This document shows, piece after piece, positions 5,709 to 36,759 of a DNA stretch of 64,000 bases. The DNA comes from a bacterium. Lineage in GTDB: Bacteria; CAYTYR01; UBA6262. The position numbers were made by a program, and so were the translations under genes. The notes below the pieces were generated by a model that had not been told where the DNA came from, ran no database searches, and was given only the letters and a program-made list of their open reading frames with translations. Each line of letters opens with the position of its first letter. Position 1 is the first letter of the stretch. The stretch is taken from assembly GCA_028712895.1 (NCBI GenBank), contig JAQTPL010000001.1:3681-67680 (forward strand), given 5' to 3'.

Positions 5709-6827
5709 TTAAATTGTGCATTGTCCTTCATTGCTAATTACTACATTTTGTTTCTTCCAATCTTTAGGCAATAAAGTATCTTCATTATTACTAAAATAAG
5801 AAGCCCTTACTATTCCCACTAGATCTTGTATTTCATTTGCATATTGATTACCTTTGTTATATCGTTCTATAATTTCTCTTTCTAACCAATACTCTGATTT
5901 ATACATATCTTCTTTATTTTCATATTCTTTTAAAATATTATTATAGTCATAAAGTATTTTATTTACTCCAATTTCAACGCTTTTATTATCAGAAATTATT
6001 CTATCAGTTTTCACTTGCATAATACCTAATGTTTTTGAATGACCTACTTTAAATAGTAAAACCTCAAGCATACGAATAAGCTTAGGCCTATTAAAAGACT
6101 CATAAATCATAATTGAATAAATTAATGCTTTTAATTTTGCATTTGTTACTTTATCTTCTATTATAGATTTGTATTTATGCTGATAAGAGAGAAACTTATA
6201 ATCAATATATTTGCTCTTCCTTTTTTCTGTATCTCTTGGTGACAGTTTAATATTATTAAACAATTCATATAGAAAAAATATAATTATTAACCATAATTCG
6301 TTACCAATTGTTTGCATATCTGGAAATAAGTAACTTCTTACAACTATTAGCTTCCTGTATATAAAATATGATATAAATATTATTATTACTGCACATAATA
6401 ATTCCTTATTCCAGTCAAGTAACTTTGCTCTTCCGAGAGCTAAGTTAAATAGCAATCTAAATGCTACATAGTATACGCTTATCAAGTAAATACTATTTAC
6501 ATATATATCCATCGAAAGTGCATATAATATAACTGAAATTATAATTATATATACAACTGGCGAAAATATTCTATAAATAAAATTAAACATTGGTGCTTCA
6601 TCTGCCTTCATAAATATTGATAGTTCCATATATCCCTTTGAGTATGACTGTTTACCAATAATGTTAATCAGAATAAACTGAAGTAATGCTAATCCAAAAT
6701 GTAATGTATAAGTATCCCAACTCATTTTGATTTCACCTACTTTATTAAATAGACCATGCAACGTGGTCAGGCACTGAAACGTGAAAGTAATTCTTTGTCT
6801 GGATTCAGAATTAGTATTGTGTCTCAC
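5709..6827 (-). CDS. integral membrane protein with a C-terminal soluble domain (hypothetical)
   Basis: The 372-aa ORF likely starts at the internal Met (MSWDTYTL, ~6725). It has about 6 hydrophobic helices followed by a ~150-aa polar domain. The domain bears a weak ESF...GIMQ...YN.G resemblance to lytic transglycosylases, which is uncertain. A 10-nt gap separates it from the upstream protease gene. Confidence 0.5.
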   Translation of the reverse strand: MRHNTNSESRQRITFTFQCLTTLHGLFNKVGEIKMSWDTYTLHFGLALLQFILINIIGKQSYSKGYMELSIFMKADEAPMFNFIYRIFSPVVYIIIISVILYALSMDIYVNSIYLISVYYVAFRLLFNLALGRAKLLDWNKELLCAVIIIFISYFIYRKLIVVRSYLFPDMQTIGNELWLIIIFFLYELFNNIKLSPRDTEKRKSKYIDYKFLSYQHKYKSIIEDKVTNAKLKALIYSIMIYESFNRPKLIRMLEVLLFKVGHSKTLGIMQVKTDRIISDNKSVEIGVNKILYDYNNILKEYENKEDMYKSEYWLEREIIERYNKGNQYANEIQDLVGIVRASYFSNNEDTLLPKDWKKQNVVISNEGQCTI

Positions 6828-12940: not shown

Positions 12941-13408
12941 TTATAATCTAAAATTAAGTTCTAGTTGCGGATTTTCCTTCTTAACTTCTATCAAGATTTG
13001 CTTCAATAGTTGTATGCCATCTTTAAAAGCCTTATGGCTCTCTTTTTTGCTCACTAATATGCCGGCTTCATAGGTCATTTCGTTTCTTTTCCTGCGCATA
13101 GTCTCGAATTGGTCAGTGATATCTCTGTAACGTTTCCCCAATATGGCACTGGTTATTTCTACCACAGTTCGATGTTGTGCTCCATCATCAGGAACATACC
13201 CGTTGCTCAATAATAAAGCTCTACCTGCCTTGAGCATGGCCATATACGCCATAACATAAGTTGCCCGTTCGGCAATCGGTAATGTCTTTTGCGCTTCCTG
13301 CAAATCCAATATTGATTGTTTCAGTAACGCCTCTATCTGAACTATACCGGCCTTCTGTTTTCTTAATTTTCCTTCCTTAAGCAGCCTTTCTATGAGTTTT
13401 TGCGGCAT
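12941..13408 (-). CDS. HEPN domain protein (partner of the adjacent nucleotidyltransferase)
   Basis: It carries a PF05168-like LKAGRALLLSNGYVPDDGAQH motif. It overlaps the MNT gene by 32 nt. Confidence 0.55.
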   Translation of the reverse strand: MPQKLIERLLKEGKLRKQKAGIVQIEALLKQSILDLQEAQKTLPIAERATYVMAYMAMLKAGRALLLSNGYVPDDGAQHRTVVEITSAILGKRYRDITDQFETMRRKRNEMTYEAGILVSKKESHKAFKDGIQLLKQILIEVKKENPQLELNFRL

Positions 13409-13964
13409 TTACCTCCCCTTTCAGTATTATTATTTTCCCGTTAGTGATCAGGTTAAGAAAACTGCCAGATTTAGCTGTTTCTTTCTTAAATTCGTCTTTA
13501 TCATAATGGGTGAAATTGATTTCGCGACCTATTTTGGATTCTAAATTGCGGACCTTGCGGGTGAATTCGTCCAAGGGGAATTGTCCAACTACTAATAGAT
13601 CTATATCCGAGGATTTATTTTCGTTTTCTTTGGCATATGAGCCATATATGAAAGCCAGGGATATACCTTTATATTTTGCTATTATATTTCTTAATGATCC
13701 CTCTATACCTTCTGTCTTGAAGATTATCTCTTTAATTTCTTTGTATAAAGGGTATTCTTTGCTGAGGGAATAATATTTTGAATTGCCGCGGATGAACGAT
13801 TTGAAAAGGCCTTCTTTTTCCAGCTTATTCAGCTCCCTGGATAAATTACCGGGGTCGTCATTGATAATGGCTGCTATTTCCCGGACATAATAATTCTCAT
13901 CAGGATGGCTAAAGAAATAGGTTAAAACGCTCTTTCTCAATTTGGTGTTGATAAGTATAGACAA
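13377..13964 (-). CDS. nucleotidyltransferase (MNT) with N-terminal wHTH
   Basis: It has the signature GSYAKENENKSSDIDLLVV (GS...DxD) and an N-terminal ArsR-like helix YYVREIAAIINDDPGNLSRELNKLEKEGL. Confidence 0.7.
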   Translation of the reverse strand: MSILINTKLRKSVLTYFFSHPDENYYVREIAAIINDDPGNLSRELNKLEKEGLFKSFIRGNSKYYSLSKEYPLYKEIKEIIFKTEGIEGSLRNIIAKYKGISLAFIYGSYAKENENKSSDIDLLVVGQFPLDEFTRKVRNLESKIGREINFTHYDKDEFKKETAKSGSFLNLITNGKIIILKGEVNAAKTHRKAA

Positions 13965-14159: not shown

Positions 14160-14549
14160 TTATAATAGCCAGTACTCTTTAGGCGAAATAATCTTAATGC
14201 TTTTATACTGTTTTAATACAAGCAGATCCTTATCGCCAGTAATAATAACATCTATCCCATTAGCATCTGCATCTGCCAAGATATGATTATCATCCTTGTC
14301 CCGGCAGCAATCAGGGATGTTTTTCCCAGCAACACCTTCCTGGAAATGTTTTTCTATAAATACAGTCATATCCTTTATTATGGAAGCGGTAAACTTGAAT
14401 TTGGTCCTGAAATTATGGTGGAATTCTTTAAGGATATACTGGGTATAGAATACTTCGTGGGTGTTGACCGCGCTTTGAACTATGTCGTAACAGTTTCCAT
14501 TACTCAGGAAAGCCGCAATTAGGACATTGGTGTCAAAAAGGATCTTCAT
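14160..14549 (-). CDS. PIN-domain toxin (VapC-like)
   Basis: KILFDTNVLIAA places an Asp at position 6. DADANGIDVIITGDKDL supplies the C-terminal acidic residues. Confidence 0.7.
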   Translation of the reverse strand: MKILFDTNVLIAAFLSNGNCYDIVQSAVNTHEVFYTQYILKEFHHNFRTKFKFTASIIKDMTVFIEKHFQEGVAGKNIPDCCRDKDDNHILADADANGIDVIITGDKDLLVLKQYKSIKIISPKEYWLL

Positions 14550-14767
14550 GAGATCTTTTCCAGGATCTCATCTTCTGAAAGCACAATACCTCTCTTCGCT
14601 GCCTCCAGCATGGCTTTTTTGCGCAACTCATCAAATTCGGTCTTAAAAAAGTAATCCTTCAGGGCCTTGCGCACTACTTCACTGATATTGGCGTTTTCTT
14701 TCTTGCTATTATCTTTAAGCTTGCGGAGTATTGCGTCCGGCAGGCTTATGGATACACTGTTTCTCAT
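14546..14767 (-). CDS. ribbon-helix-helix (CopG-like) antitoxin
   Basis: The 73-aa ORF overlaps the PIN start by 4 nt. ISLPDAILRKLKD is a beta-strand followed by helices, as in RHH folds. Confidence 0.6.
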   Translation of the reverse strand: MRNSVSISLPDAILRKLKDNSKKENANISEVVRKALKDYFFKTEFDELRKKAMLEAAKRGIVLSEDEILEKIS

Positions 14768-14884
14768 ATTAATACCCTCCTGTATTACAATGTAGCACAG
14801 TATTGTCTATTTGTCAAGAAATAAACAATCATTTCGTTAATTATCTTTTTTGACTATTAGAATTTATCGAATAGTTGGTTACAA

Positions 14885-15199
14885 TTACTTCTTTTCTTTA
14901 AGTTTGGCTATGACATCGGCGGTTTTCATTAAATTCCTGCCTTCTTCGGTGACCACTAAATTAAAAAAGTCACATCGCATACAATTGCTGACCTTTCGGG
15001 CAAAAGAGCCCTGGATCTTGGAGTCACAAAAAGTCCCGGCGATCGCCCAGCAAACACGCCCGCCATTTATGCCGCCATGTACACCAAAGACACGAGTATT
15101 TGTGGCTGCCGGACATACGCCTAATTCATTAACCTTGCTGCCACCAGGCTCCCGGCCGCACCTTTTTAATTCCCAGCAGTTGATTTTCAATATTGGCAT
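14885..15199 (-). CDS. small cysteine-rich protein, paralog 1 (unknown family)
   Basis: The 104-aa protein has 7 Cys in the pattern NCWELKRCGRE...GVC...GVHGG.NGGRVCWAIAGTFC...NCMRC. It shares about 45% identity with 34140..34439. Confidence 0.55.
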   Translation of the reverse strand: MPILKINCWELKRCGREPGGSKVNELGVCPAATNTRVFGVHGGINGGRVCWAIAGTFCDSKIQGSFARKVSNCMRCDFFNLVVTEEGRNLMKTADVIAKLKEKK

Positions 15200-15289
15200 G
15201 TATAACCCTTTATTCCACTCTGAGGTGGACAGTTTGTTATTTAAGCTATCCAGAATGACTAAAGATTCATACCAAGGTGGCTAAGCTAA

Positions 15290-16549
15290 CTAATTATTCG
15301 CGGGAAATACGCTTTCGTAGAATTCTCTGGCCCTGGCTTGCTGCTGTTTTGTGCTGGCAGAGATATCCGCCAGGTTATGTTCCAGTACTTTGGCCACATT
15401 GTGGTCCAGCATGCCTTTTTCATCCAGGTTCTTGATAATGGCCATGGCTTCATCCAGGGTCATCCCTGCCCGATAAGGACGGTCCTCGGTCAAAGCGGTG
15501 AAGATGTCGGCTACAGCCATGATCCGCGAGATCATGCTTAATTTATTGGCCCGTAGATGGAACGGGTACCCGGACCCGTCGAGTTTTTCGTGGTGAAACG
15601 CGGCCCATTCAGCGATCTCTTCAAGTCCTTTTACTGTGCAAAGCGTCGTATAGGTGAAATAAGTGTGCTGTTTCATGATGGCAAATTCCTCGGTCGTAAG
15701 CTTATCCTGTTTTTCCAGGATAGTGTTGGGGACCATCAGTTTGCCCAGGTCATGCAGGTTGCCTGTTATTTCCATCAGTTCGATCTCCCATTCAGTCAAA
15801 CCGAAATATTTGGCAATGAGCCCGGCAGAGGTCGAGACCCCGGCTGAATGTGTCGAGGTGAACCTGGACCGGAAATCGATCAAGTTGCGGAATATTTTAG
15901 ATACTTCTTTCAGGTCCGAGAGGTCCAATACAACGCTTCTGTAGGTGGCCTCGCGGTAAAGGAGGGAATATATCCGGGGTGAAGTCACAGTCAGCCAAAA
16001 ATCTTCTCTCTTGGCGATATCTTTGAAAATATCGATTAAGCCAACCTGGATGTCAGTCGCAGCCAGCCGGGAGACTTGCTCGGCAATATTGCGGTCCTGG
16101 TGCAGAATGTATTTGGAGCGGTTGATGCTTCTTTCCACATAGTCTGCCAGGTTCAGTATTTGGGCTTGCGCAGTCAAAGGATTTTCAACTGTTTGTACCC
16201 AGTCCTGCCATTTGTGATGATGCAGCCTGATGATCTTCGCGGCATGCGCGAATACCGGTACGTCTTTGAGCAGGGATTCTCCCAGGATACAATGCGGCTC
16301 GGTCATGATCGTATCAGCCTCATGCAGATTGATCTTTTCTTCGGCAGTCAATGCCCCCACATCATGGATCAGGGCGGCGATCACCAGGTTTTCTATATCT
16401 TCCCTGCCCATACCGGTTTTTCTGGCAAGTTCCCAAGCGATATAGGCGGTCCTGATCTGGTGCTGCACAAGCTCCGGGCTGGCCAAGTCCAGGGCGTCGG
16501 AAAACGACAGGACCAGATTAAATAAATTGATGGATATTCCCCTATACAC
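15290..16549 (-). CDS. HD-GYP domain protein (tandem HD domains; c-di-GMP phosphodiesterase-like)
   Basis: The N-terminal HD is IAALIHDVGAL. The C-terminal HD-GYP is GNLHDLGKLMVP, HHEKLDGSGYP. Confidence 0.75.
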   Translation of the reverse strand: MYRGISINLFNLVLSFSDALDLASPELVQHQIRTAYIAWELARKTGMGREDIENLVIAALIHDVGALTAEEKINLHEADTIMTEPHCILGESLLKDVPVFAHAAKIIRLHHHKWQDWVQTVENPLTAQAQILNLADYVERSINRSKYILHQDRNIAEQVSRLAATDIQVGLIDIFKDIAKREDFWLTVTSPRIYSLLYREATYRSVVLDLSDLKEVSKIFRNLIDFRSRFTSTHSAGVSTSAGLIAKYFGLTEWEIELMEITGNLHDLGKLMVPNTILEKQDKLTTEEFAIMKQHTYFTYTTLCTVKGLEEIAEWAAFHHEKLDGSGYPFHLRANKLSMISRIMAVADIFTALTEDRPYRAGMTLDEAMAIIKNLDEKGMLDHNVAKVLEHNLADISASTKQQQARAREFYESVFPANN

Positions 16550-16578: not shown

Positions 16579-16956
16579 TTATTTTTTCAGTACCTTTTCA
16601 ATGGAGTGCATTATGATCAGTGCGCCCGGCAGTTGCAGGGTATATTTAAATCCCATATTTGCCAACCCTGTATAGAATACTGTATTCAGGCCCAACCAGG
16701 CAACAATTATTATTACTATTCCGCTAAAGGACAAGTTCCCCTTCCGGCTCAACAGGTAGGCTAACAGAGGTATGGGGAAAAAATAGGTCACGTAAGGCAG
16801 CAGATTTACAAAGCTGACCATGACCGACATCCAGATCGCCTGGCGCAACGGCTTGTCCACATCAAAGAAAAGAAACATGATCCATAAGCCGACAGTGGAC
16901 ACCGCTACCCCGGCCCAGAAATTAATGATATACGTGTGGATACTCGCGAACGGCAT
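16579..16956 (-). CDS. hypothetical small membrane protein
   Basis: The 125-aa ORF has four predicted TM helices. Confidence 0.4.
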   Translation of the reverse strand: MPFASIHTYIINFWAGVAVSTVGLWIMFLFFDVDKPLRQAIWMSVMVSFVNLLPYVTYFFPIPLLAYLLSRKGNLSFSGIVIIIVAWLGLNTVFYTGLANMGFKYTLQLPGALIIMHSIEKVLKK

Positions 16957-16966
16957 ACATTATCCT

Positions 16967-17941
16967 TTAGTCTTTGGCGCCGGCTTTTTCCAGTAATTTA
17001 TCAATTTCGGTATTTCTCTCTTTGGCTGCCACCATCCGTGCCGTCATCCCGGAATTATCCTTGGCGTTTATATCCGCGCCTGCGGCTAGCAGCAGGACCA
17101 CAATATCTTTATGGCCTTTCTGCGCCGCCACCATCAACGCGGTGCCGCTACCGGTATTTTCCTGCGCGTTTACATCAGCACCTTTGTCTATCAGCATCCT
17201 GGCGACATCTTTGTGCCCGTACATGGCCGCGATCATAAGCAGGGTATTCCCGGTATTATCCTTAGCCTTTACATCAGCCTCTTTGCCGATGAGCAGTTCC
17301 GCCATGGCTGAATTGCCCTCTTGTGTCGCTGCCATTAGCGCGGTGAATCCGTTTTGATCACTGGCATTTACGTCTGCCCCGCTGGCTATGAGCATTTCCG
17401 CTATTTCTTTATGGCCGTACATTGCAGCTGACATCAGGGCCGTAGTTCCGGTATTGGTCTTGGCTTTTACGTCAGCCCCTTTGGCAATAAGCAGTTCCAC
17501 TACTTCTTTATGTCCGATAGCCGCGGCTGACATTAGCGCGGAGATCCCGGCGCTCGATTTAACCTTGACGTCAGCGCCTTTGGCGATGAGCAGTCCGGCG
17601 ATATCTTTTTGTCCCGTTGCCGCGGCTGACATTAGCGCGGTGCCGCCTTTATTGCTCTTGGCGTTTACCTGCGCTCCCTTAGCGATGAGCAGTTCCGCTA
17701 TCTCCTTGTGACCCTTTCCCGCAGCCCACATCAATGCAGTGGTTCCGTCGCTGGACTTAGCCTTGACGCTGGCTCCCTGGTCGATCAGGGATTTTACCTG
17801 GGCCAGGTCACCATCCCCGGCTGCCTTTATCAGGGATAGGTTCTCCTGCTCTCCGGCAAATACAGAACCACTGATTATGAGCATGACGAATACAATGGCA
17901 GATATGAACAATTTCCTGGTTTCTCTCACTCTTCCCTCCAT
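16967..17941 (-). CDS. secreted ankyrin-repeat protein (~8 ANK repeats)
   Basis: It has a signal peptide followed by repeats of G.TALM.AA..GH..IAELLIAKGADVNAK. The nucleotide sequence is also tandemly repetitive. Confidence 0.85.
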   Translation of the reverse strand: MEGRVRETRKLFISAIVFVMLIISGSVFAGEQENLSLIKAAGDGDLAQVKSLIDQGASVKAKSSDGTTALMWAAGKGHKEIAELLIAKGAQVNAKSNKGGTALMSAAATGQKDIAGLLIAKGADVKVKSSAGISALMSAAAIGHKEVVELLIAKGADVKAKTNTGTTALMSAAMYGHKEIAEMLIASGADVNASDQNGFTALMAATQEGNSAMAELLIGKEADVKAKDNTGNTLLMIAAMYGHKDVARMLIDKGADVNAQENTGSGTALMVAAQKGHKDIVVLLLAAGADINAKDNSGMTARMVAAKERNTEIDKLLEKAGAKD

Positions 17942-32672: not shown

Positions 32673-33308
32673 TTATTTCTTTATTTTTGATTCATCGATG
32701 CTGATCTGGAGCTCAACCCGACGGTTCATCGCGCGGCCTTCTGCCGTATCATTGGAAGCGACAAAATTGGTTGCGCCCATGCCTACCGGCTCGATCGAGG
32801 CTGCTGGTACGCCGCGCGCGATCATGGCTAAACGCACAGCTTGCGCTCTCTGCATAGACAAGCGCTGGTTGAGGTCGCTGCCGCCAACACTGTCAGTATA
32901 ACCGACGACGATTATTTTGTCTTCGGGATACTTTTTGATAATGTCGGAGATCTGGTTCACGCTGTCTACAGCTGCCGGTTTCAGGTCAGCTTTGCCGGAA
33001 TCAAATAAAAGATTGCTCTTCAAAGTTGTGATGATACCGTTTTCAGTCCGTTTGGTTTCAGCGAGTACTTCAAGTTCCTTGGCTTGTTTGTCCAGGTAAT
33101 TGCCAACGCCGCCGCCCAAGAGCGCGCCAGCTGCCGCGCCGATAAGGGCGCCCTGGCCGGTTTTGCCGGATTGGTGGCCGATCACAGCTCCCGCGATGCC
33201 GCCTATGGCGGCGCCGGTGCCTGCCCCGATAGCGGTACGTTTGCCGGGTGTGGTGCAACCTGCGGCAACTAAGGCCAGCAAAAGAAATACTACTAATAGG
33301 TTCTTCAT
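32673..33308 (-). CDS. OmpA-family lipoprotein with glycine-zipper N-domain
   Basis: The lipobox is VAAGC. OmpA-C is FDSGKADLKPAAVDSVNQISDIIKKYPEDKIIVVGYTDSVGGSDLNQRLSMQRA. Confidence 0.8.
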   Translation of the reverse strand: MKNLLVVFLLLALVAAGCTTPGKRTAIGAGTGAAIGGIAGAVIGHQSGKTGQGALIGAAAGALLGGGVGNYLDKQAKELEVLAETKRTENGIITTLKSNLLFDSGKADLKPAAVDSVNQISDIIKKYPEDKIIVVGYTDSVGGSDLNQRLSMQRAQAVRLAMIARGVPAASIEPVGMGATNFVASNDTAEGRAMNRRVELQISIDESKIKK

Positions 33309-33391
33309 GTTTATTCTCCTTTTATTTTTTATTAGGTCATACGCAACTTGCTGTTATCGCCCCCCTTCACAGTTTATTTTGTGCTTATAAG

Positions 33392-33730
33392 CTATTGTTT
33401 GCTGTGACGGTATTTGATCACTTTGACTTTCTCCAGGGTGATCAGCCCTTCGGTGACTGTTTCATCAAGAAAAGGCATCAGCAGGTCTATTTTTTCCTGC
33501 ACATCCACCAACTCTATCACTATCGGCAGGTCATTGGATAATTGCAATATTTTGGAAGTATGCATACGGCTGTCAGCGCCGAAGCCCATGATCCCGCGCA
33601 TGACTGTCGCGCCAGCCATATTGAGTTCCCTGGCTTTAAGCACTATTTGTTCATAGAGAGGCTTACCCTGGTATTTATCAGTCTCGCCTACAAAGATCCT
33701 TAGCAGCATACCTTCTTCAGGTAGTTTCAT
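33392..33730 (-). CDS. DUF190 (PII-like) protein, CrcB-associated
   Basis: LLRIFVGETDKYQGKPLYEQIV...GATVMRGIMGFG...LPIVIELVD matches the DUF190 consensus. Confidence 0.75.
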   Translation of the reverse strand: MKLPEEGMLLRIFVGETDKYQGKPLYEQIVLKARELNMAGATVMRGIMGFGADSRMHTSKILQLSNDLPIVIELVDVQEKIDLLMPFLDETVTEGLITLEKVKVIKYRHSKQ

Positions 33731-33739
33731 GGAATTCTC

Positions 33740-34126
33740 CTATTTCAGCATGAATGACAATAATTCTTTGGATAAAATAACGCCAGCTACGACCAAAACC
33801 AAACCCAGGACATTGGTAGTGATGATATTGATAAAGGCATATCCGGTTTCGCCGGCGCGGAAAAGATTGATAGTTTCCAGGGCATAGCTGGAAAAAGTAG
33901 TAAATCCTCCCAGGATACCCACTAAAACAAAGACCCGCAGGTCAGGAGCTATGGAAACGCGCTCAGAGAGCTCCCATAAAATACCGATCAGGCAAGAGCC
34001 GATAAGATTTACCCACAACGTGCCCCAGGGAAATACCCCGGCAGTTTGTTTGTGGGTCCAGTCGGTCATCAGATACCGTAATCCTGAACCTATGCCGCCT
34101 CCGATGATGGCATATAGTAATGGCAT
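33740..34126 (-). CDS. crcB: fluoride ion channel CrcB/FluC
   Basis: It is a 128-aa 4-TM protein with GGGIGSGLRY and GFTTFSS motifs. Confidence 0.85.
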   Translation of the reverse strand: MPLLYAIIGGGIGSGLRYLMTDWTHKQTAGVFPWGTLWVNLIGSCLIGILWELSERVSIAPDLRVFVLVGILGGFTTFSSYALETINLFRAGETGYAFINIITTNVLGLVLVVAGVILSKELLSFMLK

Positions 34127-34139
34127 TCACATTCTCCTA

Positions 34140-34439
34140 TTATCTCAGATGCTGCAGCAATTCGCTGGTTTTCTTGATATTAAACCCTTCTTCACTTTTG
34201 ACCATCATGTAGAAACTGCACTCGAAGCAATTGTTATTAAGGAGCGCGAACGAACCTTGGGTTTTGCCATAACACAATGTCCCGGCTACCGCCCAACAGG
34301 CCCGGCCGGCATTTTTGCCGCCGTGCACGCCGTTCAACCTGGTTTCCGTAAAAGCCGAGCACACCCCTTTTTCATCCTCTTTGCAGCCGCCGTACTCCCG
34401 GCCGCATTGCATAAATTCCCAGCAATTAAGTTTGGCCAT
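34140..34439 (-). CDS. small cysteine-rich protein, paralog 2 (unknown family)
   Basis: The 99-aa protein has 8 Cys in NCWEFMQCGRE...GVC...GVHGGKNAGRACWAVAGTLC...NCFEC. It lies 13 nt upstream of crcB. Confidence 0.55.
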   Translation of the reverse strand: MAKLNCWEFMQCGREYGGCKEDEKGVCSAFTETRLNGVHGGKNAGRACWAVAGTLCYGKTQGSFALLNNNCFECSFYMMVKSEEGFNIKKTSELLQHLR

Positions 34440-34487
34440 ATTCGATCATCTTCCTCTGTTTAAAATGAGGGATGTTACTAAATAGAA

Positions 34488-35891
34488 TCAGTCTTTTGGT
34501 TCAGTGCCGCTCCAGCAGTAAAGGCAAAGTTGCTTGCGGGGCAAGCCAATGGCTTTGACCATATTTTCGATGGTCTGGTACCGCAGGGTGGTCACTTCTA
34601 TATCTCTGGCGATCCATTCCACCATCTTCTTGTATTTCCTGGAGTTAGGATCCAAATATTCGGAAACATCTTCTATATCCCTGCCTTCCAGCGCTTTGAT
34701 CGCGCGTCTGGCTACCAGCTCATTGATGTTGCGGGTAGAAAGGCAGAATTTGCACGGGAACATGAGCGGCGGACAGGCTGGCCGCACGTGCACTTCCTTG
34801 GCGCCGCAATCCCACAGCTTGTTGACCGTAAAATTCTTCAACTGGGTGCCGCGGACGATCGAATCTTCGCAGACCACGATACGGTTGCCTTTGATGATCT
34901 CTTTGATCGGCACTAATTTCATCTTGGCGATAAGGTCCCGGGTTTCCTGGGATGGCGGCGTATAGCTCCGGCCATAGCCGGGTGTGTATTTCACCAGCGG
35001 CCGGCGGAATGGCTTACCTGATTCCATGGCATAACCCAAAGCATGGGCTAACCCTGAATCAGGGACGCCGGTGACCACATCCACTCCTATATCTTTGTCT
35101 TTCCTGGCCAACGCCCGGCCGCAGCGTTCTCGGACCACTTCCACGTTGATATTCTCATAGTCAGACGCGGGAAATCCGGTATAGATCCAGAGGAAAGAGC
35201 AAATCTGGTTGGTCCTACCGCCCTTTTTTTTGGCGACCAGCCCTTTGTCGGTAATGAGCGTGATCTCTCCTGGCTGTAGGAATTTGACAGTTTCAAATCC
35301 CAGGTTCGGGAACGCGTGATTCTCGGCAGTGACGGCCCAGGTGTCGTTATTCTTGCCGATCACCAGCGGCGTGTACCCACGGCGGTCGCGGGCCGCGTAA
35401 ATGCCGTCTTTGTTGAGCAGAAGCAAGGAACATGATCCTTCGATCAGGCTAAACATCTTTTCAATACCGTCAACAATATCCTTGCCGGTGATGATCAGTT
35501 TGGCGATCAGCTCGGTCACATTCACGCCGTCTTTCCCTGCTTCGCTGAAAGAATAGCCTTTGTCAAACAGTATTTTAGTCAGCTTTTCCTTGTTTTCAAT
35601 GAGTCCTGAAGTTACCAGGCAGAACGGGCCGAACCGGGAGTTGATGTACATAGGCTGTTCGTTTGAGTCGCTGATCACGCCTATGCCTTTGTTGCCTTCC
35701 ATATGGCGATAATCTTCGTAGAATTTTGATTTGAACTGGGTCTGGCTAATATTGTGTATTTGCCGGGTGAAGTTTTGTCCCAGCACGGCCATGCCGCCGA
35801 ATTCAGTACCAAGATGGGAATGGTAGTCAGTACCGTAAAACAAAGTCTGGATGCAGTTAGATTTTGAAACAACCCCGAAGATTCCACTCAT
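34488..35891 (-). CDS. amidophosphoribosyltransferase (PurF)-like protein with Ser in place of the N-terminal Cys nucleophile
   Basis: It starts MSGIFGV (codon AGT where PurF has Cys) and has the PRTase motif VVCEDSIVRGTQ. C-terminal Cys pairs CKFC and CLYC are present. Confidence 0.7.
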   Translation of the reverse strand: MSGIFGVVSKSNCIQTLFYGTDYHSHLGTEFGGMAVLGQNFTRQIHNISQTQFKSKFYEDYRHMEGNKGIGVISDSNEQPMYINSRFGPFCLVTSGLIENKEKLTKILFDKGYSFSEAGKDGVNVTELIAKLIITGKDIVDGIEKMFSLIEGSCSLLLLNKDGIYAARDRRGYTPLVIGKNNDTWAVTAENHAFPNLGFETVKFLQPGEITLITDKGLVAKKKGGRTNQICSFLWIYTGFPASDYENINVEVVRERCGRALARKDKDIGVDVVTGVPDSGLAHALGYAMESGKPFRRPLVKYTPGYGRSYTPPSQETRDLIAKMKLVPIKEIIKGNRIVVCEDSIVRGTQLKNFTVNKLWDCGAKEVHVRPACPPLMFPCKFCLSTRNINELVARRAIKALEGRDIEDVSEYLDPNSRKYKKMVEWIARDIEVTTLRYQTIENMVKAIGLPRKQLCLYCWSGTEPKD

Positions 35892-35924
35892 TTCATCATA
35901 CTCCTTTGTATGAAGATGTAGTTG

Positions 35925-36719
35925 TTAGTTCTTTTGTTGGCTTATCATATCCTGTTCTGTGATGTCAGGGTGATGGTACCTCTTCCTAACCGCTGTCTTC
36001 TTGCCGGCTTGTATCGCTTCCTGCGGGCACCATTGCAGGCAGCCCACGCATTGTTCGCAATGATGCAGCCAGACAGGTTTGCCGTCACTCATTTTGATGT
36101 TTTTAACCGGGCATACTTTTTCGCAGACGCCGCAGCTATTGCACTTCTCATCTACCCAGAAAGCTTTATCTCCTTCGGGGATCTTAAGTGAGCCGTGTTT
36201 GTAGATAAAGCTACTGAATAAGGAATTAACCAAAGCATTGTTGGCGCTGATAGGCACGCTCTTGTTGGCTTTCACTATCTCCGCGATCTCCTTGATGGCA
36301 GCGGCTTCCCTGGCAAAATGCTTTTGCTGTTCTGCCGTTGATTTAGCGCCGTACATCGGCGTATAGTTGCCAGGCATCTTGATACCGAATCCGGCTGAGA
36401 GATCGATCTTGTTGGTTGCGAGGAGATCTTTCAACATCAGCAGTGTGCCTGCCGGGAATCCTCCATAATTAGTGATCCCAAAGACATAGGTTGCCGCAGG
36501 CACTTGCAATTTGCGGGCAAAGTTGGCGACGATCAACGGCGGTCCCCATATATATACAGGAAAGACTATGCCGACCCGGTCCGCGGACGGGGTGATGCTT
36601 GGCTGGTCTATTACTTTGGCGATCGGGATGATCTCAGTGTCACCCAGCTGGGCGGCCAGGTCTTTGGCTATTTTCAGGGTATTACCGGTACCGGTAAAAT
36701 AATACAATAGAGTTTTCAT
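35925..36719 (-). CDS. flavodoxin-like domain protein with C-terminal 2x[4Fe-4S] ferredoxin motifs
   Basis: The N-terminal flavodoxin-like region is KTLLYYFTGTGNT. The two clusters are CNSCGVCEKVCP and CEQCVGCLQWCP. Confidence 0.7.
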   Translation of the reverse strand: MKTLLYYFTGTGNTLKIAKDLAAQLGDTEIIPIAKVIDQPSITPSADRVGIVFPVYIWGPPLIVANFARKLQVPAATYVFGITNYGGFPAGTLLMLKDLLATNKIDLSAGFGIKMPGNYTPMYGAKSTAEQQKHFAREAAAIKEIAEIVKANKSVPISANNALVNSLFSSFIYKHGSLKIPEGDKAFWVDEKCNSCGVCEKVCPVKNIKMSDGKPVWLHHCEQCVGCLQWCPQEAIQAGKKTAVRKRYHHPDITEQDMISQQKN

Positions 36720-36759
36720 AAAATTGTTTCCCCATTTCCTGGACTGTGAACGGCAGTTA

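What the first reader, a model, noticed from the sequence alone, without database searches (positions are those of the whole stretch)
14885..15199. Paralogous pair of ~100-aa cysteine-rich proteins of unrecognised family (second copy at 34140..34439, directly upstream of crcB)
Seen in sequence:
- Two proteins share about 45% identity and a conserved 7-Cys pattern: N-C-W-E-x3-C-G-R-E ... G-V-C ... G-V-H-G-G-x-N-x-G-R-x-C-W-A-x-A-G-T-x-C ... N-C-x-x-C.
- One (14885..15199) lies just downstream of an HD-GYP phosphodiesterase.
- The other (34140..34439) sits between a PurF-like gene and the crcB-DUF190 fluoride module, with only a 13-nt gap to crcB.
- No known family was recognised (not SCIFF, rubredoxin, or C_GCAxxG_C_C by motif).

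Inference:
- The conserved spacing suggests a small metal- or FeS-binding protein family.
- Its duplication and stress-gene context make it a candidate for a new redox or metal-handling function.
Basis: seen in the sequence. Interest (0 to 1): 0.65.

Follow-up and report, generated by a model that had tools for sequence, protein, structure and literature searches.

The report
Two stand-alone two-CW domain proteins
The two small seven-cysteine proteins are real paralogues of a widespread family that NCBI has catalogued but nobody has studied (the "two-CW domain"); comparison with relatives suggests it is a plug-in module of bacterial and archaeal signalling proteins, probably a metal- or iron-sulfur-based sensor, and not a fluoride or general stress protein.

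Summary
Both ORFs exist, on the minus strand: A at 14885..15199 (104 aa) and B at 34140..34439 (99 aa). They are 54% identical (E 2e-40). All seven Cys are conserved across the family.

The family is large: at least 1,962 clusters at 50% identity and at least 593 loci in species genomes. It spans many bacterial phyla and methanogenic archaea.

About a quarter of the sampled members are fusions. Partners include histidine kinases, chemoreceptors (C-terminal), GGDEF, HD-GYP, adenylate cyclase, Ser/Thr kinase, PP2C, PilZ, receiver domains and a rubrerythrin-like domain.

Copy A's position after an HD-GYP phosphodiesterase recurs in Nitrospirota and exists as a single fused protein in a Melainabacteria genome. 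Copy B's stable neighbour is the PurF paralogue. crcB adjacency was seen in 0 of 80 other loci and there is no fluoride riboswitch.

Best reading: a stand-alone, Cys-ligated, probably metal or Fe-S signal-input module. The signalling role is well supported. The cofactor and the signal sensed are inferred.

The parts
14885..15199 (-). Two-CW protein A, 104 aa, stand-alone. The domain covers residues 7-84, followed by a C-terminal helix.
   Evidence: ORF. NF045718 110.7 bits, E 3e-32, cut-off 35. Seven invariant Cys. AF2 pLDDT 81.6. Deposited at NCBI as hypothetical protein MDD5258364.1.
15290..16549 (-). HD-GYP-type c-di-GMP phosphodiesterase, 419 aa. It has an N-terminal degenerate HD/HDOD-like domain and a C-terminal HD-GYP domain. 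It ends 90 nt upstream of A and is the proposed partner of A.
   Evidence: Pfam HD_5 151 bits and HD in two stretches. HHEKLDGSGYP motif in the translation. No minus-strand promoter-like or terminator-like site in the 90-nt gap. The same gene pair is on the deposited contigs L001-L003.
34140..34439 (-). Two-CW protein B, 99 aa, stand-alone paralogue.
   Evidence: ORF. NF045718 98.2 bits, E 2.6e-28. 54% identical to A. NCBI MDD5258389.1, hypothetical protein.
34488..35891 (-). PurF paralogue, 467 aa, ending 48 nt upstream of B. It is the conserved neighbour of B-type two-CW genes.
   Evidence: Pfam GATase_7. TIGR01134 purF 207.6 bits, below the 350-bit cut-off. The N-terminus is MSGIFG, so Ser stands where class-II amidotransferases have Cys1. 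The neighbour relationship is kept in P0272 and P0270 loci and in L084.
35925..36719 (-). EFR1-family ferredoxin (flavodoxin-like plus 4Fe-4S dicluster). It is the first gene of the same-strand run that contains B.
   Evidence: NF038196 268 bits, cut-off 75. Pfam Fer4 and Flavodoxin_5. Promoter-like site at 36750..36723 (-). Kept in the P0272 locus.
33740..34126 (-). CrcB fluoride channel, 13 nt downstream of B. The adjacency is lineage-specific and not a family trait.
   Evidence: TIGR00494 98.6 bits, cut-off 80.45. Pfam CRCB. crcB is absent from 80 other two-CW loci and from the P0270 locus. No fluoride riboswitch.
33392..33730 (-). DUF190 protein, the usual companion of crcB.
   Evidence: Pfam DUF190 135.7 bits.

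Best explanation
A and B are two stand-alone members of the two-CW domain family (NCBIfam NF045718). The domain is a compact, roughly 80-residue cytoplasmic module held together by six to seven invariant cysteines. I take these to ligate a metal centre, most likely an Fe-S cluster or a bi-metal Cys cluster.

In many organisms the domain is fused to the transmitter parts of signalling proteins, where it behaves as an input or regulatory module. Partners are histidine kinases, chemoreceptors, GGDEF, HD-GYP, adenylate cyclase, Ser/Thr kinases, PP2C and PilZ.

The free-standing ~100-aa forms, which are the majority, would do the same job in trans. They would bind a partner signalling protein, possibly through the C-terminal helix, and change its activity according to the state of the Cys-metal centre (redox, O2, NO or metal availability).

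In this window, copy A is most likely co-transcribed with the HD-GYP phosphodiesterase just upstream and modulates c-di-GMP hydrolysis. Copy B belongs to a run of EFR1 ferredoxin, PurF paralogue, two-CW, CrcB and DUF190, in which its evolutionarily stable partner is the PurF paralogue and not the fluoride genes.

Shown: family membership, Cys conservation, the fusion repertoire, and the recurrent HD-GYP linkage. Inferred: metal binding, the nature of the signal, the physical interaction, and co-transcription.
For: Membership:
- NF045718 scores 110.7 and 98.2 bits against a cut-off of 35, over the whole 80-position model.

Cys conservation:
- 421 of 435 domains keep all seven Cys.

Signalling role, from fusions:
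- Of 51 multi-domain members, 15 carry HATPase_c, 10 HisKA, 9 PAS, 8 Response_reg, 4 Pkinase, 3 MCPsignal, 3 cNMP_binding, 2 GGDEF, 2 STAS, 2 PilZ and 2 GAF.
- Explicit architectures include 2CW-HisKA-HATPase, where two-CW is the only extra domain (P0155, P0259).
- They also include NIT-MCP-2CW, HAMP-MCP-2CW, 2CW-adenylate cyclase, 2CW-PAS-GGDEF, 2CW-PilZ and RR-2CW.

Signalling role, from neighbours:
- One member sits inside an Omnitrophota che operon, overlapping cheB by 4 nt, with a tandem second copy.
- One lies between RR-GAF and PAS-HAMP-MCP genes.
- One follows two receiver genes and two hemerythrin genes.

HD-GYP link:
- An HD-GYP gene is the same-strand -1 neighbour, 24-28 nt away, in 5 of 49 loci, against 1 of 214 genes at distance ±4/5. 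An HD-GYP gene lies within ±4 genes in 11 of 80 loci.
- A natural two-CW-HD_5 fusion exists in a Melainabacteria genome.
- PAS (7/49 vs 2/140) and GAF (6/49 vs ≤2/140) are also enriched at -1.

Redox or metal flavour:
- There are at least 30 clusters of a ferritin/rubrerythrin-like domain followed by two-CW. In them two-CW occupies the place the rubredoxin domain holds in classical rubrerythrin.
- Hemerythrin and AhpC genes occur as neighbours.
- Hosts are mostly anaerobic lineages, including methanogens.
- Bacterial hemerythrin sensors have the same architecture range (MCP C-terminus, DGC, HD-GYP) and confer redox control on HD-GYP activity (PMC9388753).

Co-transcription:
- No minus-strand promoter-like or terminator-like site lies between the HD-GYP gene and A, or within the run around B.
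Against: - No cofactor was or could be demonstrated. The Cys could bind structural zinc only.
- RR-2CW, GGDEF-2CW and HK-2CW place the domain where output or interaction domains often sit, so 'input sensor' is not the only reading.
- The five HD-GYP/-1 loci are all Nitrospirota and may represent a single evolutionary event. That leaves about three independent occurrences: the window lineage, Nitrospirota, and the Melainabacteria fusion.
- Many stand-alone members have no signalling neighbour, for example the Bacteroidota locus next to bipA. The +1 neighbours are heterogeneous.
- Genes in the 80 loci were called with a crude home-made ORF picker.
- The AF2 model is only moderately confident (pLDDT 81.6, and 55-63 for residues 51-70) and its coordinates could not be inspected, so Cys clustering is unverified.
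- Copy B has no signalling neighbour in the window.
Confidence: 0.55

Rival explanations
1. The domain is a structural zinc-Cys protein-protein interaction (adaptor or scaffold) domain. It binds Zn only for folding, senses nothing itself, and tethers signalling proteins to one another or to a common target. The stand-alone proteins act as small adaptors or inhibitors.
For: The domain occupies both N- and C-terminal positions. It follows receiver domains in RR-2CW, where output or interaction domains usually sit. Tandem 2CW-2CW proteins and tandem genes suggest self-association. The predicted fold has many loops, as in zinc knuckles. Some host lineages are aerobic (Terriglobales, Acidobacteriaceae), which fits an oxygen-stable site.
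Against: In minimal kinases (2CW-HisKA-HATPase, P0155 and P0259) it is the only candidate input domain. Its replacement of the rubredoxin position in rubrerythrin-like fusions, and the hemerythrin and AhpC neighbours, point to redox chemistry. Seven Cys is an odd number for two classical ZnCys4 sites.
Confidence: 0.22
2. The domain is a small electron-transfer module, functionally like rubredoxin or ferredoxin. Its job is to keep non-haem di- or tri-iron enzymes reduced and active (HD-GYP, rubrerythrin-like, hemerythrin). It acts as a redox supplier, not an information sensor.
For: In the rubrerythrin-like-2CW subfamily (at least 30 clusters), two-CW sits where the electron-donating rubredoxin domain sits. 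HD-GYP enzymes are active only with reduced iron (PMC9388753) and are recurrent neighbours or fusion partners. Copy B lies in a run with an EFR1 ferredoxin and a PurF paralogue.
Against: This does not explain fusions to histidine kinases, MCPs, adenylate cyclase, Ser/Thr kinases, PP2C, PilZ, STAS and CBS, none of which needs electrons.
Confidence: 0.15
3. Copy B, and by extension the family, functions in fluoride or general stress resistance together with CrcB and DUF190, as the first reader suggested from context.
For: The gap to crcB is 13 nt on the same strand. The arrangement is kept in identical contigs and in a 76%-identical orthologue.
Against: crcB and DUF190 are absent from 80 other two-CW loci. 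A 79%-identical orthologue has the PurF paralogue but no crcB. No fluoride riboswitch was found at gathering or relaxed thresholds.
Confidence: 0.04
4. The ~100-aa Cys-rich ORFs are precursors of ribosomally made, post-translationally modified peptides (SCIFF- or ranthipeptide-like).
For: They are small and Cys-rich, and the name was coined by NCBI curators. It is my recollection, not tested here, that the same curators also define many RiPP precursor families.
Against: Conservation runs across the whole domain with no leader/core split. The domain is embedded in large cytoplasmic signalling proteins. Radical_SAM is not among the 25 most frequent Pfam families at the -1 or +1 positions. The protein is predicted to fold.
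Confidence: 0.02

Closest known systems
NCBIfam NF045718 'two-CW domain-containing protein' (curated domain model; no published function found)
   Same: Both window proteins match the full 80-position model far above the cut-off. They carry both CW motifs and all seven Cys.
   Different: Nothing differs: they are ordinary stand-alone members. The older GenBank records still call them 'hypothetical protein'.
Bacterial hemerythrin sensor domains (DcrH, Bhr-DGC, Bhr-HD-GYP)
   Same: Both are small cytoplasmic metal-containing modules found at the C-terminus of chemoreceptors, on diguanylate cyclases and on HD-GYP phosphodiesterases, and also free-standing. They confer redox or O2 control (PMC9388753). 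Hemerythrin genes neighbour some two-CW genes.
   Different: Hemerythrin is a four-helix bundle with a His/Glu/Asp di-iron site. Two-CW has 6-7 Cys ligand candidates, few helices in its N-terminal 60 residues and no detectable fold relative.
CZB (chemoreceptor zinc-binding) domain
   Same: From my own knowledge, not tested here: CZB is a small cytoplasmic metal-binding domain at the C-terminus of MCPs and on GGDEF proteins, and it also occurs stand-alone. It senses zinc and oxidants through a Cys in the metal site.
   Different: CZB is a four-helix bundle with a 3His/1Cys zinc site. There was no Pfam hit to it and the Cys pattern is different.
WhiB-like (Wbl) proteins
   Same: From my own knowledge: these are ~100-aa stand-alone Cys-ligated [4Fe-4S] proteins that sense O2 and NO and act by binding a partner protein.
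   Different: Wbl proteins have 4 Cys, are restricted to Actinobacteria, and partner with sigma factor A. There was no Pfam hit. Two-CW has 7 Cys, is spread across bacteria and archaea, and partners with signalling enzymes.
Rubredoxin domain of rubrerythrin
   Same: It holds the same C-terminal position after a ferritin-like di-iron domain as in the ~265-aa rubrerythrin-like-2CW proteins.
   Different: Rubredoxin has two CxxC knuckles in about 40 residues. Two-CW has a single CxxC (C73-x2-C76) and about 80 residues. There was no rubredoxin Pfam hit.

Membership tests
NCBIfam NF045718 two-CW domain | HMM score above the curated cut-off (35 bits) over the full model | tested here: met
   A scores 110.7 bits over model positions 2-79 of 80. 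B scores 98.2 bits over positions 1-80 of 80.
NCBIfam NF045718 two-CW domain | Two Cys-Trp motifs (the feature that gives the domain its name) | tested here: met
   C8-W9 and C50-W51 in A, with equivalents in B. W9 is invariant in all 111 aligned sequences; W51 is nearly invariant (≥90% there; 98% of 435 domains).
NCBIfam NF045718 two-CW domain | Conserved seven-Cys pattern C-x5-C-x14-C-x20-C-x7-C-x14-C-x2-C | tested here: met
   All seven are present in A and B and in 421 of 435 domains.
Fe-S or metal-binding protein (general) | Bound metal or cluster shown by analysis or spectroscopy, or Cys clustered in 3D | not testable with these tools
   Only sequence conservation is available. The coordinates of the AF2 model cannot be read out.
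Classical 4Fe-4S ferredoxin or rubredoxin | CxxCxxCxxxCP motif, or two CxxC knuckles, with a Pfam Fer4 or Rubredoxin hit | tested here: not met
   No such Pfam hits at E ≤ 1. There is only one CxxC in the sequence.
SCIFF or other RiPP precursor | Adjacent radical-SAM or other maturase; leader/core organisation | tested here: not met
   Radical_SAM is not among the 25 most frequent Pfam families at the -1 or +1 positions. The domain is embedded in large signalling proteins.
Fluoride-response module (crcB regulon) | Fluoride riboswitch upstream, and conserved co-occurrence with crcB | tested here: not met
   No Rfam hit. crcB occurs in 0 of 80 loci and is lost in the P0270 orthologue locus.
Signal-transduction input or regulatory domain (functional class) | Recurrent fusion to several unrelated transmitter or output domains, and operon linkage with signalling genes | tested here: met
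   Fusions to HK, MCP, GGDEF, HD-GYP, adenylate cyclase, STK, PP2C, PilZ and RR. che-operon and HD-GYP linkage.
Known protein fold | Structural match to a solved structure | tested here: not met

The most novel reading that the evidence does not exclude
The two-CW domain is a new-fold, Cys-ligated Fe-S or bi-metal redox, O2 or NO sensor. It would be a previously undescribed general-purpose input domain, comparable in role to PAS, GAF or hemerythrin. Mostly anaerobic bacteria and methanogenic archaea would plug it into two-component, chemotaxis, c-di-GMP, cAMP and Ser/Thr-kinase pathways. The stand-alone copies, such as A next to HD-GYP, would work in trans.
Probability: 0.4. Interest if true: 0.75.

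Novelty: new member of a known kind. Interest (0 to 1): 0.5.

Why it matters
The window proteins themselves are ordinary members of a catalogued family. The family, however, is a blind spot. It is large and phylogenetically very broad, has 6-7 invariant cysteines, and has no Pfam entry, no structure, no detectable fold relative and no literature.

The fusion and neighbourhood evidence gathered here turns a 'hypothetical Cys-rich protein' into a testable hypothesis: a trans-acting or fused metal/redox input module for signalling enzymes. Concrete, simple test systems follow from it. These are the HD-GYP + two-CW pair in this window, the natural two-CW-HD-GYP fusion, and the minimal 2CW-HisKA-HATPase kinases.

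If confirmed, it would add a new sensor domain class to bacterial and archaeal signal transduction. It would also help explain how uncultured anaerobes sense redox state.

Tried and rejected
- Pfam scan of A and B: only sub-threshold noise (Anti-TRAP E 0.013, GH116N).
- PDB sequence search with a 111-sequence profile: nothing at E ≤ 10.
- AFDB50 fold search: the library was not available.
- Literature searches for 'two-CW domain', 'two-CW', 'NF045718', and Cys-rich sensor combinations: nothing relevant. Galperin & Chou 2022 on HD-GYP architectures (PMC9017333) is not held.
- Fluoride riboswitch: none at gathering score over the whole window, and none at E ≤ 5 in 33300..36200.
- crcB/DUF190 link as a family trait: rejected, 0 of 80 loci.
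- RiPP precursor idea: rejected because of the fusions and the absence of maturases.
- Sigma-70 promoter and terminator scans: site counts are at shuffle background, so they only show that no obvious punctuation separates the genes.
- My first crude gene caller missed 17 two-CW ORFs. I re-ran it seeded on the match.
- I could not read the AF2 coordinates, so the grouping of Cys into sites remains unknown.
- Co-loss analysis of the Cys: without truncation, C58 is the only Cys replaced more than once.

Full report

Yes. The ORF listing finds both ORFs on the minus strand: A at 14885..15199 (104 aa) and B at 34140..34439 (99 aa). Each has a plausible Shine-Dalgarno sequence: AAGGG 7 nt upstream of the ATG for A and GAGGAAG for B.

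BLASTP of A against B gives 53/99 identities (54%) with no gaps, E 2e-40. A profile HMM built from the family, run on all six frames of the window, finds exactly these two copies (E 1e-48 and 2.5e-41) and nothing else.

The Cys pattern is genuine. In 111 aligned homologues C8, C14, C29, C50, C58, C73 and C76 (A numbering) are invariant, as are N7, W9, G20, G43, G47 and R48. In 435 domains from 429 proteins, 421 have all seven Cys. Without truncation only the fifth Cys (C58) is replaced more than once (9 cases); two other Cys positions show one substitution each, one of them in a truncated domain.

The context statements are correct.
- 15290..16549 (-) is an HD_5/HD protein with the HHEKLDGSGYP motif. 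It ends 90 nt before A.
- B is flanked by a GATase_7 PurF-like gene (48-nt gap) and by CrcB (13-nt gap), followed by DUF190.

**2. Is the family unrecognised?**

No. Pfam has nothing. NCBIfam NF045718 'two_CW_domain' matches A at 110.7 bits and B at 98.2 bits, against a cut-off of 35, over the whole 80-position model. Some recent NCBI records already carry the name 'two-CW domain-containing protein'. The window's own proteins are deposited as 'hypothetical protein [bacterium]', MDD5258364.1 and MDD5258389.1.

Beyond the name I found nothing.
- No paper was found.
- No PDB relative was found with a sequence profile.
- An AlphaFold2 model of A was built from 111 sequences (pLDDT 81.6, pTM 0.74). 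It has loops and short helices in residues 1-60 and three helices in residues 66-101.

**3. How big and how widespread is the family?**

A profile search of 1.84 billion cluster representatives finds 1,962 clusters at E ≤ 1e-3 and 1,084 at E ≤ 1e-10.

Hosts include:
- Nitrospirota/Thermodesulfovibrionia (many), Desulfobacterota, Omnitrophota, Acidobacteriota, Planctomycetota and Ignavibacteriota;
- Bacteroidota, Fibrobacterota, Chloroflexota, Melainabacteria, Parcubacteria, Bacillota and Leptospirales;
- the archaea Methanoregula and Methanospirillum.

Almost all are metagenome-assembled genomes, which probably explains why no experiments exist.

**4. What do relatives say about function?**

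(a) Fusions. In my sample of 429 proteins, 315 are stand-alone (≤140 aa). The domain is N-terminal in 38, C-terminal in 52 and in another position in 24; six of the 429 carry it in tandem.

Pfam on 51 multi-domain members gave HATPase_c 15, HisKA 10, PAS_9 9, Response_reg 8, Pkinase 4, MCPsignal 3, cNMP_binding 3, GGDEF 2, STAS 2, GAF 2 and PilZ 2, plus PP2C and NIT.

Explicit architectures:
- 2CW-HisKA-HATPase, where two-CW is the only non-catalytic domain (P0155, P0259)
- 2CW-PAS-HK
- PAS-HK-2CW
- NIT-MCP-2CW and HAMP-MCP-2CW
- 2CW-adenylate cyclase
- 2CW-PAS-GGDEF and GGDEF-2CW
- 2CW-PilZNR-PilZ
- RR-2CW
- CBS-2CW
- 2CW-Usp
- cNMP-Pkinase-2CW-PP2C

This promiscuous attachment to unrelated transmitter modules is the signature of a signalling input or regulatory domain.

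(b) Neighbours.
- In an Omnitrophota genome, two tandem two-CW genes sit inside a che operon. The order is MCP, MCP, CheA, CheB, 2CW, 2CW, CheW, CheR, and the first copy overlaps cheB by 4 nt.
- Another member lies between RR-GAF and PAS-HAMP-MCP genes.
- Another follows two receiver genes and two hemerythrin genes.
- A Bacteroidota member has no signalling neighbour.

I then analysed 80 genome loci with my own simple ORF calls.
- The same-strand gene within 300 nt upstream (n = 49) carries PAS_9 in 7, GAF in 6, HD_5 in 5, HAMP in 4 and hemerythrin in 2.
- Control genes four or five positions away (n = 140) carry PAS_9 in 2, and HD_5 and GAF in at most 2 each.
- Fisher tests give p ≈ 0.001-0.004.
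- Downstream neighbours are heterogeneous.

(c) The HD-GYP link of copy A. phmmer with the window's HD-GYP protein finds an HD-GYP gene directly upstream of the two-CW gene in L016, L036, L049, L050 and L077. Gaps are 24-28 nt and the genes encode ~925-aa membrane sensor HD-GYPs. An HD-GYP gene lies within ±4 genes in 11 of 80 loci.

In a Melainabacteria genome the two are one polypeptide: 2CW at residues ~1-95 and HD_5 at 159-315. The five adjacent cases are all Nitrospirota and may be one event. Together with the window lineage and the fusion, that still gives about three independent links.

HD-GYP enzymes use two or three bound metal ions. In the characterised hemerythrin-fused HD-GYP enzyme from Ferrovum (Bhr-HD-GYP) only the reduced ferrous form is active, so its activity is redox-gated (PMC9388753).

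(d) The context of copy B. Identical contigs and a 76%-identical orthologue keep the order EFR1 ferredoxin, PurF paralogue, 2CW, CrcB, DUF190. A 79%-identical orthologue keeps the PurF paralogue and 2CW but has no crcB. A Nitrospirota locus (L084) also has the PurF paralogue at -1.

crcB and DUF190 are absent from all 80 other loci, and there is no fluoride riboswitch. The fluoride adjacency is therefore a local accident of gene order. The stable partner of B is the PurF paralogue.

(e) Hints about chemistry.
- A conserved ~265-aa subfamily (at least 30 clusters, 52-68% identical over the full length) joins a ferritin/rubrerythrin-like domain to a C-terminal two-CW domain. This is the position of the electron-donating rubredoxin domain in classical rubrerythrin.
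- Hemerythrin and AhpC genes occur as neighbours, and the hosts are predominantly anaerobic.
- Together these favour a redox-active iron or Fe-S centre over purely structural zinc. This is inference only.
- Six strictly required Cys plus one nearly required Cys do not fit two classical Cys4 sites. A [4Fe-4S] cluster with extra Cys, or a bridged binuclear Cys6 cluster, would both be compatible.

**5. Most likely mechanism**

The two-CW domain is a compact Cys-metal module. The state of its centre (redox, O2, NO or metal) is passed to an attached or interacting signalling enzyme.

Stand-alone proteins like A and B act in trans, possibly through the C-terminal helix (residues ~77-101). That helix lies partly beyond the 80-residue domain model, which ends at residue 84 of A. 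In fusions it would form the linker.

A probably regulates the HD-GYP phosphodiesterase with which it appears to be co-transcribed. No minus-strand promoter-like or terminator-like site lies in the 90-nt gap. The downstream RHH-PIN pair has its own promoter-like site at 14817..14789.

B probably acts on, or with, the PurF paralogue and EFR1 ferredoxin genes.

Confidence by claim:
- Family membership: about 0.99.
- Signalling module: about 0.8.
- Metal or redox sensing: about 0.45.

**6. Rivals**

- A structural-zinc adaptor domain. RR-2CW and the tandem forms fit this reading.
- A rubredoxin-like electron donor for di-iron enzymes. This fits the HD-GYP, rubrerythrin and hemerythrin links but not the kinase, MCP and cyclase fusions.
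- A fluoride or stress role. The non-conserved context argues against it.
- A RiPP precursor. The fusions argue against it.

**7. Comparison with known systems, and novelty**

By membership this is simply NF045718. By behaviour the closest analogues are:
- bacterial hemerythrin sensor domains, which show the same set of partners (C-terminal on an MCP in DcrH, on a DGC, on an HD-GYP);
- CZB and WhiB-like proteins (from my own knowledge).

All three have different folds and different ligands.

The window proteins are new members of a catalogued kind. What is new here is the functional framing of the family, not its existence. Interest is moderate (0.5). It is an attractive, tractable target in an uncharacterised and very widespread domain family.

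Noticed in passing
window 34488..35891 (-): The 'PurF-like' protein scores only 207.6 bits on TIGR01134 (cut-off 350). It begins MSGIFG, so Ser stands where class-II glutamine amidotransferases have the catalytic Cys1. It is therefore a PurF paralogue of unknown activity. It is the conserved upstream neighbour of B-type two-CW genes (P0272 and P0270 loci, and L084).
   Followed up: partly
window 35925..36719 (-): An EFR1-family ferredoxin (NF038196, 268 bits; flavodoxin-like plus 4Fe-4S dicluster) heads the same-strand run that contains the PurF paralogue, two-CW B, crcB and DUF190. A promoter-like site lies at 36750..36723.
   Followed up: partly
window 33392..34126 (-): The crcB-DUF190 pair has no detectable fluoride riboswitch, neither at gathering score nor at E ≤ 5. 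It appears to be read through from the upstream genes.
   Followed up: yes
window 14160..14767 (-) and 12941..13964 (-): An RHH antitoxin and PIN toxin pair lies directly downstream of two-CW A, with its own promoter-like site at 14817..14789. Next to it is a nucleotidyltransferase (Polbeta/NTP_transf_2 on the matching contig L001) overlapping a 155-aa ORF, which may be a second toxin-antitoxin pair.
   Followed up: partly
L005 6001..6315 and 6345..6647 (Omnitrophota, JADFXT010000001): Two tandem two-CW genes are embedded in a chemotaxis operon between cheB and cheW-cheR. The first overlaps cheB by 4 nt.
   Followed up: partly
P0246 and P0386-P0414 (about 265 aa, e.g. Candidatus Sulfobium): A conserved subfamily fuses a rubrerythrin/ferritin-like domain to a C-terminal two-CW domain. 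Two-CW takes the place of the rubredoxin domain of classical rubrerythrin.
   Followed up: partly
L068 3198..4229 (Melainabacteria, MFRJ01000083): A natural single-polypeptide fusion of two-CW and an HD-GYP (HD_5) domain. It mirrors the separate HD-GYP and two-CW genes at window 14885..16549.
   Followed up: yes
family-wide (A residue C58): Of the seven Cys, the fifth (C58) is the only one replaced repeatedly, by G, S, R or I in 9 of 435 domains. It lies in the least confident part of the AF2 model (residues 51-70). This leaves six strictly required Cys.
   Followed up: partly
window 16579..16956 (-) and 16967..17941 (-): A 125-aa hydrophobic ORF with no family hit lies directly upstream of the HD-GYP gene on the same strand. 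Before it is a 324-aa protein that looks by eye like ankyrin repeats (not tested).
   Followed up: no
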